Of a stretch of DNA of 52,709 nt, positions 4,663 through 17,819 are shown one piece after another. This DNA is from Candidatus Faeciplasma avium (lineage in GTDB: Bacteria; Bacillota; Clostridia; Oscillospirales; Ruminococcaceae), in the NCBI GenBank assembly GCA_018713505.1, contig DVOL01000005.1, forward strand, positions 1-52,709, in the 5' to 3' direction. The notes under the pieces are model-generated. The model ran no database searches, was not told the origin of the DNA, and worked only from the letters and a program-made list of their open reading frames with translations. A program made the position numbers and the translations under genes. The first letter of the stretch is position 1. The number at the start of each line of letters is the position of its first letter.

Positions 4663-4743
4663 ACTATCCTTCTCCTTGCTTTTTATTGACATAAGCTGCG
4701 CCGCCGCTATGCCAGCCTAAAGACGGGCCTTGGCAGACCTTAA

Positions 4744-5841
4744 TCAGCTTGCCTTGAATATGTATTTTGCGAAGTTGTAGGTGCCCACCTCGATGGCAGG
4801 TCCGCCGTGCCATGAGGAAACCATCTGATATTTATGGGTGACGCCGTTTCGTGTGAAGATGTCGGAATAGGTCTTGGGGGTGTTCCATACGACCTGGTCG
4901 TCGTCTCCTGCGAAGATTTCAAGAAGGTAGGGGCTGTACTCCTCGGGGAAAACAAGCTCGTCCTCCGAAAGCTGACCGGGGTGCATATTGGGGTCACCGG
5001 GGGTAAGACCGGGAGCCGGGCAGAACGCAGCTATGTAGCCGAATTTGTCCGGGTGCATAAGACCTATTGCAAGAGCCTCCCTTCCGCCCATCGAGAAGCC
5101 GCAGACGGCTGTATGGTCCCTGCCAGTGAGGGCAGAGTAGTTTTCCTCTATGTAGGGCATGAGGTCGGTGGTTATCTCCTCGACGCAGTTATCGTATATC
5201 AGGCTGTTTTCGAGATTCATCCCGGTGCAGGAGTCCTGCTGACCCTTTTTGGAGGCGAAGATGTCGGGAAATACTACAATCATCTCCTCCGCCTCACCGT
5301 CAGCAATCATCTTGCCTATAATGTTCTGACAGCCGGCGTCCTCCGCCATAGAGTTATTGTGCCCCCAATAGCCGTGGAGGATGTATAAAACCGGGTAGCT
5401 CTTCGACTCGTCATAGGACGCAGGAAGATATACCCTCGCCTTTCTGTCCTTCTCGCAAACGCTAGAGTAGTAAGTGATTTCGGTAAGAGTGCCGTACTCC
5501 TTTATCGTCGGGAAGGAGGGGGAGCCGCTCACCCAGCCCGGGGAATACTTACTGGGGAGGGTATCGGTGGTTTCAATGTCCTTCATAAAAAGCTCTCCTG
5601 TCATGGGATTCTCCTCGAGATAGGAAAACAGCATATTAAAATCACGGATGCTGATTTCCCCGCCGTTTTCGTAGATGCTTTTAAGACCTGCCATACTGCC
5701 GGTTGTGATTCCCACTAGGACATCTCTTAGGTCCTTGTTGGATGTGAAGCCGTCCTTATTGGCGTCGTATGCCGAGCGTGACGGCGTGCCGGAGAGTAAA
5801 ATCCCGGCTGCGAGTGCGGTTGATATTAGCTTGGTTGGCAT
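4744..5841 (-). CDS. secreted esterase (esterase-D / CE1-like alpha/beta hydrolase) with N-terminal dockerin-like module
   Basis: GGAGG-N6-ATG at 5841. Signal peptide MPTKLISTALAAGILLSG. DANKDGFTSNKD fits the dockerin Ca-binding repeat DxNxDGxxxxxD, followed by a degenerate second repeat. Esterase core shows YILHGYWGH and the nucleophile elbow GFSMGG. Confidence 0.75.
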   Translation of the reverse strand: MPTKLISTALAAGILLSGTPSRSAYDANKDGFTSNKDLRDVLVGITTGSMAGLKSIYENGGEISIRDFNMLFSYLEENPMTGELFMKDIETTDTLPSKYSPGWVSGSPSFPTIKEYGTLTEITYYSSVCEKDRKARVYLPASYDESKSYPVLYILHGYWGHNNSMAEDAGCQNIIGKMIADGEAEEMIVVFPDIFASKKGQQDSCTGMNLENSLIYDNCVEEITTDLMPYIEENYSALTGRDHTAVCGFSMGGREALAIGLMHPDKFGYIAAFCPAPGLTPGDPNMHPGQLSEDELVFPEEYSPYLLEIFAGDDDQVVWNTPKTYSDIFTRNGVTHKYQMVSSWHGGPAIEVGTYNFAKYIFKAS

Positions 5842-14159: not shown

Positions 14160-15683
14160 TTAGATGCTCACAAGCCTCTTGAAGCTAGCCTTGAGAGCGG
14201 GATAAATCTCGGTGTAGAGCCTGTAGCAGTCCTCATACTTGGGGATGTTTTCCTCGATGGGGTTTTGAATCCTGTCGGTCTTTATGACATCACGGCATGC
14301 CTCGGGTACGCTGGAGTAAAGCCCTGCGCCGACTCCTGCCAGTATGGCGACGCCAAGAGCCGGGCCCTCCTTGGAGGATGCGGTCTTGACCGGGCAGGCG
14401 TAAAGGTCTGCAAGCATCTGTCTCCAGAGCGGGCTGGAGCCTCCGCCTCCGCACGCCATCATGTCGGAAACGCTGACCTCCATCTCCTTAAAGACCTCGA
14501 CGCAGTCTCTGAGAGAGTAGGAGACGCCCTCCATGACAGCCCTTAGCATATCCTTTTTCTCGTGCATGGCTGAAAGTCCGAAGAATACGCCCCTTGCGTC
14601 GGGGTCGAGGTGAGGGGTTCTCTCTCCCATAAGATAGGGCAGGTAAAGGAGTCTGTTAGCTCCTATCGGGACGGACTCCGCCTCCTTGTCCATAAGATAG
14701 TAAGCGTCTACTCCCATGAGCTTGGCGGTTTCCTTTTCCGCACCGCAGAAATTGTCCCTAAACCACTTGAGCGACAGTCCTGCGCCCTGGGTGACTCCCA
14801 TTACATGCCAGCAGCCCGGAACAGCCGCACAGCAGGTATGGACTCTGCCCAGCCTGTCTGTAGTCATCTTGGAGGTGTGCGCAAATACTACTCCGGAGGT
14901 CCCTATCGTTGTAAACGCCCTGCCGTCCTCAACGACGCCTGTTCCTACCGCAGCGGCGGCATTGTCTCCGGCTCCGCCTACGACAATCGTTCCCTCGCAA
15001 AGCCCGACCTCCTCGGCTACCTCCTTGGTAAGACCTCCCGTGACCTCGCAGGACTCGTATACCTTGCCAAGCATATGCCTGTCAAGTCCTAGACCGTCTA
15101 TAATCTCGTCCGACCAGTCCCTCTTGGCGACATTGAGAAGCTGCATTCCGGAAGCGTCGGAGACCTCGGTAGCGTACTCGTGGGTGAGAATGAATCTTAT
15201 GTAGTCCTTAGGCAGAAGGATTCTGCGGCAGCGCTCGTAGTTTTCAGGCTCGTTGTTCTTGACCCAGAGAATCTTGGCTGCCGTCCAGCCGGTGAGGGCA
15301 GGGTTGGCGGTTATCTCAATCAGCTTTTCCCTGCCAAGCCTTTTGTTCATCTCGTCGACCTCGTTGGCTGTTCTCTGGTCGCACCAGATTATCGAGGGTC
15401 TTATGACCTCGTTGTCCTTGTCGAGCATGACAAGACCGTGCATCTGTCCCGAAAGTCCGATGCCCTTTACATCCTCCTTCTTAACTCCGCTCTTGGCAAC
15501 GACCTCCTTGATGGTCTTGACGGCGGCGTTTGCCCAGTCGGCGGGGTCCTGCTCGGCGTAGCCGTTTTTGGGCTGGTACATCGGGTACTCGATCGTCCTC
15601 GAGGCGATTACCCTTCCCTCCTCGTCGAACAAAACCGTCTTAGTTCCGCTTGTTCCAATGTCGACTCCTATGATGTAAGCCAT
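14160..15683 (-). CDS. xylB: xylulokinase
   Basis: FGGY kinase with IIGVDIGTSGTK, LSGQMHGLV and IIWCDQRT motifs and the ~500-aa length typical of XylB. Confidence 0.8.
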   Translation of the reverse strand: MAYIIGVDIGTSGTKTVLFDEEGRVIASRTIEYPMYQPKNGYAEQDPADWANAAVKTIKEVVAKSGVKKEDVKGIGLSGQMHGLVMLDKDNEVIRPSIIWCDQRTANEVDEMNKRLGREKLIEITANPALTGWTAAKILWVKNNEPENYERCRRILLPKDYIRFILTHEYATEVSDASGMQLLNVAKRDWSDEIIDGLGLDRHMLGKVYESCEVTGGLTKEVAEEVGLCEGTIVVGGAGDNAAAAVGTGVVEDGRAFTTIGTSGVVFAHTSKMTTDRLGRVHTCCAAVPGCWHVMGVTQGAGLSLKWFRDNFCGAEKETAKLMGVDAYYLMDKEAESVPIGANRLLYLPYLMGERTPHLDPDARGVFFGLSAMHEKKDMLRAVMEGVSYSLRDCVEVFKEMEVSVSDMMACGGGGSSPLWRQMLADLYACPVKTASSKEGPALGVAILAGVGAGLYSSVPEACRDVIKTDRIQNPIEENIPKYEDCYRLYTEIYPALKASFKRLVSI

Positions 15684-15731
15684 GATTATTCCTCCTAAAA
15701 AATTAATTTTCTTTTATAATTACGGTGAGAC

Positions 15732-16334
15732 TCAGCCGCCCTGGGAGTATTTATACATACCCTCGGGGGCGAGGTTTTCTATTATATCCTTAAAGCTCTC
15801 ATCGTCGCACTCGACGCTCTCGCCGGATATCGGATTGTCCTCTGATATTATGTCCCAGAGGGTCTTAGCGTCGGGGTCGTGGCGATATCCGAGACCGTCC
15901 AGTATTTTTTTATAGCTGTCAAGACCCTTTTGGGAGTATATTTCAAGGCGCTGGTATTCTCTCATGTAAAGCTCGTCCCCTGTTATGTGGGAGCCGAAGC
16001 CGAAGCGTATGACGCCGTCCGAGTAGAGTATCCCGGAGTATCGCTTTAGTATGGCGAGAATGACGGGAAGTGTGCAGTTATCAAGATAGTAAAGCTCGAA
16101 ATCCTCCCCGGACGGAACCTCCAGAAAGAAAAACAGAGGCTCGTTAAGGCATTTGACGGCGGCAGGGAAAAGCTTTTGGTAGCTCTTAGAGGAAAGAGCC
16201 AGGACAATCCTGCCCTCCTCAGCCCGGTATGAGCGCTCAACGCCGTCGGTACTGGCGATGTAAACGCCCGGAATAAGCTCAAAATCCGGCAAGCTGTGCC
16301 CTCCTCTCGTGGTATAGTCCAAAAAATCGTACAT
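15732..16334 (-). CDS. hypothetical protein
   Basis: 200-aa ORF with local codon usage and no recognisable motif. It lies immediately upstream of xylB on the same strand. Confidence 0.55.
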   Translation of the reverse strand: MYDFLDYTTRGGHSLPDFELIPGVYIASTDGVERSYRAEEGRIVLALSSKSYQKLFPAAVKCLNEPLFFFLEVPSGEDFELYYLDNCTLPVILAILKRYSGILYSDGVIRFGFGSHITGDELYMREYQRLEIYSQKGLDSYKKILDGLGYRHDPDAKTLWDIISEDNPISGESVECDDESFKDIIENLAPEGMYKYSQGG

Positions 16335-16352
16335 AATATCCCGCCCTGCGGC

Positions 16353-16374
16353 AAAAAAGTCCGAATAATCGGAC
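16353..16374 (-). terminator. short hairpin plus T-run on the minus strand (terminator or attenuator)
   Basis: gtccga-ataa-tcggac (16359-16374). On the minus strand it is followed by tttttt (plus-strand a-run 16353-16358), 19 nt before the ATG at 16334. Confidence 0.4.
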
Positions 16375-16439
16375 AGCCAAGCCGATATAATTAGGATGTA
16401 AGAGGCGATAACGCCTCAAAAGGAAGGGGAGGATACAAA

Positions 16440-16616
16440 ATGCTGGAAATAATCGCCACAAACCTTTTCATCTTCGGCACGATGACCGCAGGTCTTTACA
16501 GGATAAGAGCCGCTCTTCTCATCCTACAGCAGATTAAAGAGGAAAAAAGAAGCTCGTCAAACAATATTATACCAAAAGATAATCCACAATGCAAGAGATT
16601 TGACCGTGCGGGATAA
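16440..16616 (+). CDS. unannotated 58-aa small membrane protein (below the ORF-track cut-off)
   Basis: GGAAGGGGAGGA-N6-ATG. Product MLEIIATNLFIFGTMTAGLYRIRAALLILQQIKEEKRSSSNNIIPKDNPQCKRFDRAG, TAA at 16614-16616. One hydrophobic helix plus a basic tail. ATA/AGG/AGA codon usage matches neighbouring genes. Confidence 0.45.
   Translation: MLEIIATNLFIFGTMTAGLYRIRAALLILQQIKEEKRSSSNNIIPKDNPQCKRFDRAG
16566..16594 (-). promoter_or_regulatory. near-consensus promoter antisense to the micro-ORF
   Basis: The minus strand reads TTGCAT (16589-16594), a 17-nt spacer, then TATAAT (16566-16571). Confidence 0.5.
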
Positions 16617-16800
16617 AATTTTTGTGCAGCCTGACACCGGGGTAAGCCACGCATTGCCGCTTCTCCCGGTGAAGGGGCAGGCTGGGGATGTCCGTAAGCA
16701 CTCGCAGATAAGGAAAAAGCCATAGGATTTTGTAAGCATAAGGACTGTTTTGCCTTAGTTCCAAGAGAGGCTTTAGCTGTGAGCGTTTATCGGCAGAATC

Positions 16801-16845
16801 AGGGGACTGTCGTTCTTAAAGGAGGGCAGTCCTCTTTTATTTTAT
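16801..16845 (+). terminator. rho-independent terminator, plus strand
   Basis: 9-bp stem aggggactg (16801-16809) / cagtcctct (16827-16835) with one G-U pair, followed by tttattttat. Confidence 0.65.
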
Positions 16846-16863
16846 AAAACTCACTGAAAATAG

Positions 16864-16892
16864 TGGAAATCTGATTTAAATTATGCTATAAT
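16864..16892 (+). promoter_or_regulatory. extended -10 promoter for the alpha/beta hydrolase gene
   Basis: TGGAAA (16864-16869), a 17-nt spacer ending with TG at 16884-16885, then TATAAT (16887-16892). Confidence 0.45.
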
Positions 16893-16943
16893 AAATGCCG
16901 TGCCTTGAAGCAGGACATTTTATCATCCGGGAGCTGTTTTTAG

Positions 16944-17714
16944 ATGACTACAACCGTTAGCGGGATAAGTATAGAATACGAAATAAAGGGGGAGGGACCC
17001 TGCGTGCTGTTTCTTCACGGCTGGGGAAGCAGCTACAGGCTGTTTGAGGGGCTTATTGCTGCCGTCTCGAAAAAATATACGGCTCTTGCCTTAGACCTCC
17101 CCGGCTTCGGCGGAAGCGGCGAGCCGCCGGTCCCCTGGAGCGTCGACGATTACTGCAGGTTTGTTTGCGAGTTTCTTTTAAGCCTCGGGCTTTCCCCCGA
17201 GGTCCTTATAGGCCATAGCTTCGGCGGCAGGCTGATGATAAAGCTTCTTGCAGACAATTCTCTTGCAGGCGTTAAGAAGGCGGTGTTTATAGACTCCGCC
17301 GGGATAAAGCCAAAGCCGTCTCTTAAAAGCAGGGCAAGGCTCGCAGTCTATAAGGCGGGGAAGGCTGTTTTGGGGCTTCCTCCGATTAAGGCCTTGTTTC
17401 CCGACGCTCTTGAGAGGCTTAGAAGAAGCCGAGGCTCCGAGGATTACAAAAACGCCTCCCCTGTCATGAGGGGGACGCTTGTAAAGGCAGTCAACGAGGA
17501 TTTAAAGGGGCTTTTGCCTAAGATAGGCGTTCCCTCGCTTCTTATATGGGGGACGCTTGACACAGCCACCCCGATATCCGACGGCGAGCTTTTTGAAAGT
17601 CTCATGCCCGACGCTGGGCTTGTCAGAGTGGAAAACGGCTCTCACTACTCGTTTCTTGACAATCCTGTGCTCTGCACAAGGGCGATATCCTCATTTCTTT
17701 CAATACCGTATTAA
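16944..17714 (+). CDS. alpha/beta hydrolase
   Basis: HGWGSS oxyanion region, GHSFGG nucleophile elbow and a C-terminal His region (NGSHYSF). Confidence 0.8.
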   Translation: MTTTVSGISIEYEIKGEGPCVLFLHGWGSSYRLFEGLIAAVSKKYTALALDLPGFGGSGEPPVPWSVDDYCRFVCEFLLSLGLSPEVLIGHSFGGRLMIKLLADNSLAGVKKAVFIDSAGIKPKPSLKSRARLAVYKAGKAVLGLPPIKALFPDALERLRRSRGSEDYKNASPVMRGTLVKAVNEDLKGLLPKIGVPSLLIWGTLDTATPISDGELFESLMPDAGLVRVENGSHYSFLDNPVLCTRAISSFLSIPY

Positions 17715-17730
17715 AATCTCGCCGGGACGG

Positions 17731-17783
17731 GGCTAAGCAGCCAAGCAGACCTTTGGCTAAGCAGCCAAGCAGACCCTTGGCTG
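17731..17783. repeat. tandem 21-bp direct repeat with embedded hairpins
   Basis: ggctaagcagccaagcagacc occurs at 17731-17751 and 17755-17775, followed by a partial ttggctgc. Each copy contains ggct-aagc-agcc. gcagccaa can instead pair with the downstream ttggctgc. Confidence 0.6.
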
Positions 17784-17819
17784 CGTATCCCTCCGATTTT
17801 AAGCTAAGGAGACCTTTTT

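What the first reader, a model, noticed from the sequence alone, without database searches (positions are those of the whole stretch)
16335..16943. 600-bp orphan intergenic region: SD-preceded 58-codon membrane micro-ORF, antisense consensus promoter, and terminators on both strands
Seen in sequence, plus strand: GGAAGGGGAGGA-N6-ATG (16440) opens a 58-codon ORF with one hydrophobic helix and a basic tail. Its codon usage matches local genes, and it falls below the track cut-off. About 190 nt of hairpin-rich sequence follows, for example cagcctg-a-caccggg ... cccggtg-aagggg-caggctg at 16627-16684. A strong plus-strand terminator then sits at 16801-16845. No plus-strand gene lies upstream that could otherwise use it.
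Seen in sequence, minus strand: TTGCAT-17-TATAAT (16566-16594) lies inside the micro-ORF and points antisense across its 5' two-thirds and SD. That transcript reaches a short hairpin plus T-run (16353-16374) just before the ATG of the 200-aa gene.
Inference: one reading is a type I toxin-antitoxin-like pair, a small membrane peptide with a cis-antisense RNA. The other is a ~200-nt attenuator or riboswitch-type leader controlling the hypothetical-xylB operon, plus an independent plus-strand sRNA. I could not match either strand to a riboswitch or sRNA family from memory.
Basis: partly seen in the sequence, partly recalled or inferred. Interest (0 to 1): 0.6.

Follow-up and report, generated by a model that had tools for sequence, protein, structure and literature searches.

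The report
Small gene, embedded antisense promoter, transposon
The "orphan" 600 bases hold a real small membrane-protein gene that carries, inside its last codons, the conserved promoter of the oppositely oriented neighbouring sugar-kinase operon, followed by a small gene-less jumping element parked on the gene's terminator.

Summary
Rfam explains none of it.

1. **The micro-ORF (16440-16616) is a real gene.**
   - A profile finds it in 37 of 40 species genomes of the genus. It finds it in none of 198 genomes from 165 other genera of the family.
   - Selection is purifying: pN < pS in 105 of 105 pairs.

2. **The antisense promoter is conserved in 30 of 30 loci.**
   - It forces invariant synonymous sites: ATT 29/29, ATA 30/30, TGC 28/28, AAG 28/28. 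Other conserved codons vary freely.
   - It is the only sigma-70-like site upstream of the conserved 186-aa-gene/xylB operon (0 of 28 loci have another; synteny).
   - The best reading is an excludon-like overlap, not a type I toxin-antitoxin pair.

3. **The "minus-strand terminator" is one of two conserved, phased palindromes.** They look like operators. The T-run is specific to this species.

4. **The hairpin-rich tail (16627-16801) is an internally deleted IS1182-type miniature transposon.** It abuts the host terminator at 16801-16845. The scan has noted this kind of element before on other DNA.

No strand-specific RNA data were available.

The parts
14160..15683 (-). xylB (xylulokinase-like, 507 aa), second gene of the conserved operon
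   Evidence: ORF. A homologous MAYIIGVDIGTSGTK... ORF follows the 186-aa gene in the same direction in 28 of 28 loci that have that gene.
15732..16292 (-). Conserved 186-aa gene of unknown function. The ORF is open up to the ATG at 16334, but the likely true start is the TTG at 16292-16290.
   Evidence: 50 homologues, all unnamed or 'hypothetical', with no Pfam family. Homologues begin at the position of the TTG (alignment A3; tblastn alignments begin at residues 2-20 of the long ORF, mostly 10-20). AlphaFold model: pLDDT 96, pTM 0.90. No Foldseek PDB match at E <= 0.001.
16299..16307 (-). Shine-Dalgarno AGAGGAGGG of the 186-aa gene, 6 nt before the TTG
   Evidence: Read.
16317..16332 (.). Box 1, palindrome GTCCAAAAAATCGTAC (family GTMC-N8-GKAC), operator-like
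   Evidence: Present 41-42 nt upstream of Box 2 in all 30 loci. It matches the strict pattern in 28. G009 and G020 have GTAC-N8-GTAT.
16359..16374 (.). Box 2, palindrome GTCCGAATAATCGGAC. It covers -39..-24 of the small gene's promoter.
   Evidence: It starts exactly 27 nt before the plus-strand TATAAT in 30 of 30 loci (in G052 the spacing is to the second of two overlapping TATAAT, read). 15 of 60 boxes have non-complementary half-sites (corrected by hand for G052). An uninterrupted T-run after it occurs only in this species; the script's looser count (at least 5 T in 8) gives 2 of 30.
16386..16391 (+). -10 hexamer TATAAT of the small gene's promoter (P_small). There is no recognisable -35.
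   Evidence: Invariant in 15 of 15 aligned loci and found in 30 of 30.
16422..16433 (+). Shine-Dalgarno GGAAGGGGAGGA of the small gene
16440..16616 (+). Small membrane-protein gene, 58 aa: N-terminal hydrophobic helix, basic stretch, conserved C-terminal ..IIPK..QCK.F..A.
16566..16594 (-). Antisense promoter P_as: -35 TTGCAT (16594-16589), 17-nt spacer, TGG, -10 TATAAT (16571-16566)
   Evidence: TTG(C/A)A(T/A)-N17-TATAAT in 29 of 30 loci, with TATACT in the 30th. Synonymous sites under it are invariant although codon use is even. TGn is present in 20 of 30.
16627..16801 (+). IS1182-type miniature transposon, internally deleted. It has a 5' hairpin module (16627-16684), a left inverted-repeat core (16684-16721) and a right end GTTTATCGGCAGAATCA (16785-16801).
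   Evidence: nhmmer E = 1e-18 to the family core. The ends align with complete copies from other genomes. The termini resemble those of a transposase-bearing IS.
16801..16845 (+). Host intrinsic terminator of the small gene, which is also the landing hairpin of the transposon
   Evidence: In 20 of 20 near-complete copies elsewhere, the 3' end of the element abuts a locus-specific hairpin.
16864..16892 (+). Promoter-like site TGGAAA-17-TATAAT with TG, for the alpha/beta-hydrolase gene 16944-17714
   Evidence: 10 of 12 matches. Pfam Abhydrolase_1, E = 1.2e-25.

Best explanation
The region is a compact regulatory junction followed by a transposon scar.

**Shown**
- A real, genus-specific gene for a 58-aa membrane protein is transcribed rightwards. 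Its promoter has a conserved -10. Its -35 region is covered by a conserved palindrome (Box 2).
- Inside the last third of that gene, on the other strand, lies a conserved sigma-70 promoter (P_as). Its hexamers are written in the codons Ile-Ile and Cys-Lys.

**Inferred**
- P_as is the promoter of the divergent operon (186-aa gene, then xylB).
- The leader of that operon, about 270 nt, runs antisense over the first two thirds of the small gene, its ribosome-binding site and its promoter.
- The two face-to-face promoters are about 160 bp apart and should interfere with each other. The means would be polymerase collision, promoter occlusion and RNA duplex formation, as in an excludon.
- An unidentified dimeric DNA-binding protein, bound at the two palindromes 42 bp (four helical turns) apart, would sit on P_small and in the path of P_as transcription. 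It would set which side wins.

**Shown by comparison**
- Downstream, the small gene's mRNA runs through a 175-bp internally deleted IS1182-type miniature transposon. The element landed at the foot of the gene's terminator hairpin.
- That transposon accounts for the 'hairpin-rich' sequence.
For: **The small ORF codes**
- Profile hits in 37 of 40 genus genomes, 32 of 34 high-quality ones.
- The frame is open in 29 of 30 fetched loci, although there are 12 different ORF lengths.
- Median pS 0.73 against pN 0.33. pN < pS in 105 of 105 pairs of 15 representatives, over the N-terminal 34 columns.

**P_as is a conserved DNA element**
- Present in 30 of 30 loci with a fixed 17-nt spacer.
- Codon choice: ATT 29/29, ATA 30/30, TGC 28/28, AAG 28/28, TTT 25/26. 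Conserved Y, L, G, R, Q, D and A columns each use 2-6 codons.
- In the neighbouring gene, Ile codons are used 109/130/145 and Lys codons 156/145.
- The residue after Ile-Ile changes (P, S, T, A, Q, I) while TATAAT stays. QCK becomes DFK in two species while TTG stays.

**P_as serves the operon**
- The 186-aa gene is divergent in 28 of 30 loci.
- xylB follows it in 28 of 28.
- No other minus-strand sigma-70-like site (at least 9 of 12) lies in the intergenic gap in 0 of 28 loci.

**RNA**
- Metatranscriptome contigs of two runs of one study bridge the whole junction: X15 at 15655-16804, depth 23.7 against 4.3 and 4.6 on the flanks, and X16 at 15830-17400.

**Boxes**
- Fixed phasing in 30 of 30 loci.

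**Transposon**
-.
Against: - No strand-specific reads, transcription start sites or transcript ends could be obtained. The RNA runs are unstranded contigs, DNA carry-over cannot be excluded, and a contig across two genes does not show one transcript.
- The -35 of P_as matches the consensus at only 3-5 of 6 positions.
- Two species (G009, G020) keep P_as and both boxes but lack the 186-aa/xylB operon at this locus. P_as therefore has, or had, some role besides driving that operon.
- In this species a 6-bp hairpin plus T6 lies in the leader and could stop part of the antisense transcripts before the operon.
- The box motif is not enriched elsewhere in the genome: 6 and 9 pattern matches, against 3-9 in shuffles. 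No regulator was identified.
- Mutual interference is inferred from geometry only.
Confidence: 0.6

Rival explanations
1. P_as makes a stand-alone cis-antisense RNA of about 200 nt. This RNA controls only the small gene and ends at the Box 2 hairpin. The 186-aa/xylB operon has its own, unrecognised promoter.
For: - In this species the hairpin is followed by T6 and is listed as terminator-like.
- G009 and G020 keep P_as without the operon.
Against: - An uninterrupted T-run occurs only in this species. The looser script count (at least 5 T in 8) gives 2 of 30.
- No other sigma-70-like site lies in the gap in 0 of 28 loci.
- RNA contigs bridge the hairpin with more than 31 nt on both sides (X15 and X16).
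Confidence: 0.2
2. The locus is a type I toxin-antitoxin pair: the 58-aa peptide is a membrane toxin, held in check by the antisense RNA.
For: - A small peptide with one hydrophobic helix and a basic tail.
- A conserved antisense promoter overlapping it.
Against: - It is a single-copy, vertically conserved core gene of one genus.
- Selection is purifying.
- The Shine-Dalgarno is strong and exposed; the predicted fold leaves it unpaired.
- The antisense promoter faces a coding operon in 28 of 30 loci.
- No PADLOC, Pfam or NCBIfam family matches.
- Toxicity was not tested.
Confidence: 0.07
3. The invariant bases in the C-terminal codons serve something other than a promoter, for example a protein-binding site or an mRNA element on the plus strand.
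For: No transcription start has been mapped. The -35 is only 3-5 of 6.
Against: - The pattern of variation is that of a sigma-70 promoter: TTG and TATAAT are fixed, the spacer sequence is free, and the spacer length is fixed at 17 in 30 of 30 loci.
- The one -10 variant, TATACT, keeps positions 1, 2 and 6.
Confidence: 0.08
4. The leader is a riboswitch or attenuator that senses a metabolite for the xylB operon.
For: A long leader of about 270 nt contains two hairpin-capable boxes.
Against: - No Rfam family matches at E <= 10 apart from noise.
- Most of the leader is the antisense of a protein-coding sequence.
- 15 of 60 boxes break the would-be base pair.
Confidence: 0.05

Closest known systems
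Divergent excludons: overlapping 5' UTRs of divergent neighbours. First named in Listeria (PMC3377988, listing and abstract start only). Mapped genome-wide in E. coli and S. aureus by ExcludonFinder (PMC12288877, passages read).
   Same: The promoter of one transcription unit lies inside the divergent neighbour. Its long 5' UTR is therefore antisense to that neighbour. The expected result is transcriptional interference and duplex RNA.
   Different: Here the overlap is predicted from conserved promoters, not observed in stranded RNA. The overlapped partner is a 58-aa gene, and the promoter hexamers are encoded in its codons. The arrangement is conserved across about 30 species.
Antisense promoters created or destroyed by synonymous codons within a coding sequence (PMC11388325, listing and abstract start only)
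   Same: Synonymous codon choice deep in an ORF sets antisense transcription towards a divergent upstream gene.
   Different: That work, by its abstract, concerns engineered genes. Here the effect is read from natural conservation.
Type I toxin-antitoxin systems (Hok/Sok, TxpA/RatA, Fst; recalled, not looked up here)
   Same: A small hydrophobic peptide gene with a cis-antisense promoter.
   Different: It is a core, single-copy, genus-wide gene. The antisense transcript most likely continues as an mRNA. There is no conserved terminator for a short RNA.
IS1182-family insertion sequences that pick hairpins as targets: IS1272 and TnSha1 of staphylococci (PMC4923244, passages; PMC5678879, abstract and section 22)
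   Same: Insertion occurs at the foot of terminator-type hairpins whatever their sequence. The termini of the element here resemble those of a PF13751-transposase IS of the same bacterial family.
   Different: The staphylococcal elements are reported to delete or replace part of the hairpin without duplication. This family usually duplicates the whole hairpin (13 of 17 copies with an intact 5' end; also the autonomous IS in L114). The window copy has no transposase, is internally deleted, and has the hairpin on one side only.
Bacterial MITEs and small dispersed repeats (BOX, RUP, SPRITE, Correia, ERIC; review PMC10969869, passages)
   Same: Short, gene-less, multi-copy and intergenic, with inverted-repeat ends, strong folds and variable internal modules.
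   Different: The passages read mention no MITE that duplicates a whole hairpin.

Membership tests
Type I toxin-antitoxin system | Small (under 60 aa) hydrophobic peptide gene | tested here: met
   58 aa with an N-terminal hydrophobic stretch.
Type I toxin-antitoxin system | Short non-coding antisense RNA with its own promoter and terminator | tested here: not met
   The promoter is conserved. An uninterrupted T-run after the hairpin occurs only in this species; the looser script count gives 2 of 30. The promoter faces a coding operon in 28 of 30 loci.
Type I toxin-antitoxin system | Peptide is toxic when overexpressed | not testable with these tools
   Needs an expression experiment.
Type I toxin-antitoxin system | Patchy, often multi-copy distribution (a usual trait, recalled) | tested here: not met
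   One copy in this genome. Found in 37 of 40 genus genomes, mostly once each.
Divergent excludon | Divergent neighbouring transcription units | tested here: met
Divergent excludon | Transcripts that overlap in their 5' parts | tested here: inconclusive
   Promoter positions predict about 160 nt of overlap. Unstranded RNA contigs bridge the junction. No stranded data were available.
Divergent excludon | Mutually exclusive expression or RNase III processing | not testable with these tools
   Needs stranded or short-RNA sequencing, or reporters.
Sigma-70 promoter (P_as) | -35 and -10 hexamers with a 16-18 nt spacer | tested here: met
   TTGCAT-17-TATAAT with TGn. Present in 30 of 30 loci.
Sigma-70 promoter (P_as) | Mapped transcription start | not testable with these tools
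   The runs are held as contigs only.
Riboswitch or known cis-regulatory RNA (Rfam 15) | Match to a curated covariance model | tested here: not met
   No hit at the gathering score. Only chance-level hits at E 1.6-9.7.
IS1182-family-derived MITE | Termini like those of an autonomous IS with an IS1182-type (PF13751) transposase | tested here: met
   The IS in L114 is 1,571 bp with a 482-aa ORF. It begins CAGCCTGTCGAAAAAG and ends ..CTACAAGCTGA. The element family begins CAGCTTGTCGAAAAAG and ends ..TCGACAGNCTGA. The window copy begins CAGCCTG. The nhmmer scores for these short ends are weak (E 0.1-0.7), so the match rests on reading them.
IS1182-family-derived MITE | No transposase, short, many copies | tested here: met
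   175 bp here. At least 11 copies in this genome at E < 1e-7. BLAST matches of 39, 9, 27 and 52 in four other genomes.
IS1182-family-derived MITE | Sits at a hairpin target | tested here: met
   The window 3' end abuts the terminator at 16801-16845. The same holds in 20 of 20 copies elsewhere.
IS1182-family-derived MITE | Hairpin duplicated on both sides | tested here: not met
   There is no copy of the terminator upstream of 16627 in the window. Elsewhere, 13 of 17 intact copies have the duplication.
IS1182-family-derived MITE | Autonomous partner in the same genome | tested here: not met
   No PF13751 match in this genome or in the four other MAGs that carry the element. All are draft MAGs, so absence is not shown.

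The most novel reading that the evidence does not exclude
The small gene and the 186-aa/xylB operon form a genus-wide, hard-wired either/or switch. Two face-to-face promoters, one of them written into the codons of the other's product, are arbitrated by one unknown regulator bound at two in-phase operators. On this reading, the 'conserved' C-terminus of the micro-protein (II..CK) is dictated by the promoter it hosts rather than by the protein's own function. That would be a natural case of a regulatory element shaping a protein sequence over about 30 species.
Probability: 0.3. Interest if true: 0.55.

Novelty: new member of a known kind. Interest (0 to 1): 0.42.

Why it matters
- It turns an 'orphan' gap into three annotatable things: an unannotated-size but real small membrane-protein gene, a promoter, and a transposon.
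- It corrects the start of the neighbouring gene.
- Invariant synonymous sites across 30 species pin down a promoter inside a coding sequence. This is a clean natural example of overlapping protein and regulatory codes. It is also a rare case where an excludon-type layout can be argued from comparative sequence alone.
- It gives a simple, testable handle on how an uncultured chicken-gut Ruminococcus-like genus controls a xylulokinase operon.
- The transposon adds one more host lineage to the hairpin-seeking IS1182-type elements. It also shows how such elements lengthen 3' UTRs without removing the terminator.

Tried and rejected
**Searches that gave nothing**
- Rfam on both strands: E <= 10 on 15500-17800, gathering score on the whole window, and E <= 1 on three paralogous loci. 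Nothing relevant.
- Pfam, NCBIfam and PADLOC for both proteins: nothing.
- A PDB sequence profile for the 186-aa protein: best E = 0.25.
- Foldseek against PDB: best E = 0.039, TM 0.15.
- ESM Atlas: only 'hypothetical' clusters.
- Box motif as a regulon: no enrichment in this genome. The four AT-spacer candidates looked like ordinary terminators or lay in coding sequence.
- BLAST of the element against plasmids: only 37-nt chance-level hits.

**Readings rejected**
- Sigma-54 and sigma-D readings of the promoters were rejected by eye. These motifs are recalled, not from a call.
- An RNA-hairpin reading of the boxes was rejected, because 15 of 60 boxes have mixed half-sites.

**The transposon's partner and empty site**
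- The 'solo left ends' in two other genomes were followed up, but all nine lay at contig ends.
- An empty-site search for the window insertion in metagenome contigs gave 0 matches. That collection holds only one contig of this species. It carries the same insertion, and all 3 of its differences in the 601 aligned window bases (16300-16900) lie inside the element. The negative result therefore says little.

**RNA cover**
- X17 and X18 gave only short pieces at low depth. I draw nothing from the parts they leave uncovered.

**Not consulted**
- Supplementary files of papers were not consulted. Figures 2 and 5 and the supplements of the IS1272 papers may show duplications that I could not see.
Full report
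**1.
- The Shine-Dalgarno GGAAGGGGAGGA (16422-16433), the ATG at 16440 and the 58-codon ORF to 16616 are as described.
- On the minus strand, TTGCAT (16594-16589), 17 nt and TATAAT (16571-16566) are present, with TGG just before the -10. The consensus scan missed this site only because the -35 matches TTGACA at 3 of 6 positions.
- The hairpin at 16627-16684 folds at -29.7 kcal/mol.
- The plus-strand terminator folds at -22.6 kcal/mol, z -5.3.
- The minus-strand hairpin plus T6 at 16374-16353 folds as described.
- Rfam 15 explains none of this.

**2. The micro-ORF is a gene.**
- One sequence finds relatives in 15 of 40 species genomes of the genus.
- A profile of 14 of them finds the gene in 37 of 40 genomes, 32 of 34 good-quality ones. 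I left out G002 from the profile because of an in-frame TGA.
- The same profile finds it in none of the 198 sampled genomes of 165 other genera of the family.
- In 30 fetched loci the frame is open in 29. The Ile-Ile motif stays in frame with the ATG across 12 different ORF lengths.
- Over the N-terminal 34 alignment columns, synonymous sites are near saturation (median pS 0.73) while pN is 0.33. pN < pS in 105 of 105 pairs of 15 representatives.
- Public annotations call it 'hypothetical protein' or leave it unnamed. There are 85 clusters and no Pfam family. Locus tags adjacent to those of the 186-aa gene show the same pairing.
- There is no Pfam, NCBIfam or PADLOC family.

**3. The antisense promoter is conserved as DNA.**
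- All 30 loci carry TTG(C/A)A(T/A), exactly 17 nt, then TATAAT. One locus has TATACT instead.
- The hexamers are the codons Ile-Ile and Cys-Lys. Their codons never vary: ATT 29/29, ATA 30/30, TGC 28/28, AAG 28/28, and the following Phe TTT 25/26.
- Every other conserved column (Y, L, G, R, Q, D, A) uses 2 to 6 synonymous codons.
- Codon bias does not explain this. In the neighbouring gene, Ile is ATT/ATC/ATA 109/130/145, Lys AAG/AAA 156/145 and Phe TTT/TTC 100/189.
- The amino acid after Ile-Ile changes (P, S, T, A, Q, I) and QCK becomes DFK in two species. Yet TATAAT and TTG persist.
- This pattern of fixed TTG and TATAAT, free spacer sequence and fixed spacer length is what a sigma-70 promoter predicts.

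**4. What P_as most likely drives.**
- The gene to the left is conserved and divergent in 28 of 30 loci. A xylB homologue follows it in 28 of 28.
- Its homologues start at the position of the TTG at 16292, behind AGAGGAGGG. The protein therefore has 186 aa, not 200.
- Between that start and the small gene, none of the 28 loci has any minus-strand sigma-70-like site of 9 of 12 or better. P_as scores 9-10 of 12.
- P_as is therefore the only conserved candidate promoter for the operon. It would give a leader of about 270 nt that is antisense to codons 1-40 of the small gene, its Shine-Dalgarno and its promoter.
- Chicken-gut metatranscriptome contigs agree, weakly. X15 has one contig over 15655-16804 at depth 23.7, against 4.3 and 4.6 for its neighbours. 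X16 has a contig over 15830-17400. Both bridge the junction. They are unstranded and may contain DNA.
- This layout is that of a divergent excludon (PMC12288877, passages).

**5. The 'minus-strand terminator' is an operator-like box.**
- Two palindromes of the form GTMC-N8-GKAC are conserved.
- Box 2 (16359-16374) starts exactly 27 nt before the invariant plus-strand TATAAT (16386-16391) in 30 of 30 loci. It therefore covers -39..-24 of the small gene's promoter, which has no -35 of its own.
- Box 1 (16317-16332) lies 41-42 nt further on, about four helical turns.
- In 15 of 60 boxes the two half-sites differ (GTCC with GTAC). That would break an RNA pair but suits a dimeric DNA-binding protein (one mis-parsed row corrected by hand).
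- An uninterrupted run of T after Box 2 on the minus strand exists only in this species. The script's looser count is 2 of 30.
- The motif is not enriched elsewhere in the genome. The regulator is unknown.
- A GntR/AraR-like sugar repressor is a guess from memory. It was not tested.

**6. The hairpin-rich tail is a miniature transposon.**
- Bases 16679-16721 have paralogues in the same genome. nhmmer finds 11 copies at E < 1e-7 and two weaker ones. Several sit at contig ends.
- BLAST finds 15 matches in this genome. In the 39 other species of the genus it finds only one 24-nt match.
- The core motif recurs in four other MAGs, labelled Ruminiclostridium sp., Oscillospiraceae and Clostridia. These give 39, 9, 27 and 52 BLAST matches.
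- Complete copies are about 240-290 bp. They have imperfect inverted repeats of about 35 nt and an extra 5' hairpin module.
- Of 20 near-complete copies, 20 are followed at once by a stable locus-specific hairpin. Of the 17 with an intact 5' end:
  - 13 have the same hairpin (20-33 nt) duplicated upstream;
  - 2 have a diverged copy;
  - 2 have a different hairpin.
- Notes from earlier work in this scan pointed to the IS1182 family. I tested this.
  - PF13751 transposases occur in 27 of 201 genomes of the family.
  - One such IS (L114) is 1,571 bp with a 482-aa ORF. It starts CAGCCTGTCGAAAAAG, ends ..CTACAAGCTGA, and is flanked by a 38-39-nt duplicated hairpin.
  - A second IS (L115) has like ends, each abutting a hairpin.
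  - The nhmmer scores for these short ends are weak (E 0.1-0.7). The match rests on reading them.
- The window copy (16627-16801) begins CAGCCTG and ends GTTTATCGGCAGAATCA, like a short variant in another genome (L062). It lacks the middle modules and abuts the terminator at 16801-16845.
- So the terminator is the host's, very likely that of the small gene. The element lengthened the 3' UTR.
- In relatives the small gene is followed within 5-164 nt by an RmuC-like or an ATPase gene. Here there is a 328-nt gap and a hydrolase gene. The element therefore sits at a synteny break.
- A second strain has the same insertion. All 3 of its differences in the 601 aligned window bases (16300-16900) lie inside the element.
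- In print, IS1272 and TnSha1 of this family target terminator hairpins without duplication (PMC4923244, passages; PMC5678879, abstract and section 22).
- I recall, but did not check, that ISfinder lists long variable direct repeats for IS1182.

**7. Verdict.**
- The type I toxin-antitoxin reading fails on distribution, selection and the target of the antisense promoter.
- The 'leader of the hypothetical-xylB operon' reading survives in altered form. It is a long antisense leader from a promoter embedded in a real small gene, with DNA operators rather than a riboswitch.
- The 'plus-strand sRNA' is a 3' UTR that carries a transposon.
- All promoter use, overlap and interference remain inferred until stranded RNA data exist.
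- The 186-aa protein folds confidently (pLDDT 96) but matches nothing solved. Its function, and that of the micro-protein, stay open.

Noticed in passing
L010/L044 (G002), small ORF: This species has an in-frame TGA five codons after Ile-Ile. Yet the downstream QCK.F codons and the antisense -35 are intact. This fits selection on the DNA (the promoter) rather than on the protein tail, or else a recent nonsense change.
   Followed up: partly
window 15732-16334 (-): The '200-aa' ORF most likely starts at the TTG at 16292, giving 186 aa. Its product is a confidently folded alpha/beta protein (pLDDT 96). It has no Pfam family and no Foldseek PDB match, and it is always paired with xylB in this genus.
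   Followed up: partly
L040 (G009) and L043 (G020): Two related species lack the 186-aa/xylB operon next to the small gene. A Na/Pi-cotransporter-like gene lies about 250 nt away instead. They keep P_as (with -35 TTGAAA) and both boxes, so P_as may have a role of its own.
   Followed up: partly
L114 (G084:C5, about 637-2207): An autonomous IS1182-type insertion sequence of 1,571 bp with a 482-aa transposase ORF. It is flanked by a perfect 38-39-nt duplication of a terminator hairpin, so it shows the same behaviour as the miniature copies.
   Followed up: yes
G000 contigs C28 about 660-800 and C6 about 4700-4823: Some copies of the element in this genome carry tandem internal units of about 49 nt (..AAAGCCCAAAATTATTCAGTGTGTTTCAACACAC..) in variable number. 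This amounts to a minisatellite inside the transposon.
   Followed up: no
L106 (a metagenome contig of another strain) against window 16300-16900: All 3 differences in the 601 aligned window bases fall inside the 175-bp element. One changes CAGCCTG to the family consensus CAGCTTG.
   Followed up: partly
L096 and L075 (other genomes): In two copies the flanking hairpins have the same or compensated stems but different loops. The duplicated terminators apparently keep evolving as hairpins after the insertion.
   Followed up: no
window 16402-16417 (+): A 6-bp hairpin GAGGCG-ATAA-CGCCTC lies in the predicted 5' UTR of the small gene, just upstream of the Shine-Dalgarno. It was not seen in the relatives aligned.
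   Followed up: no
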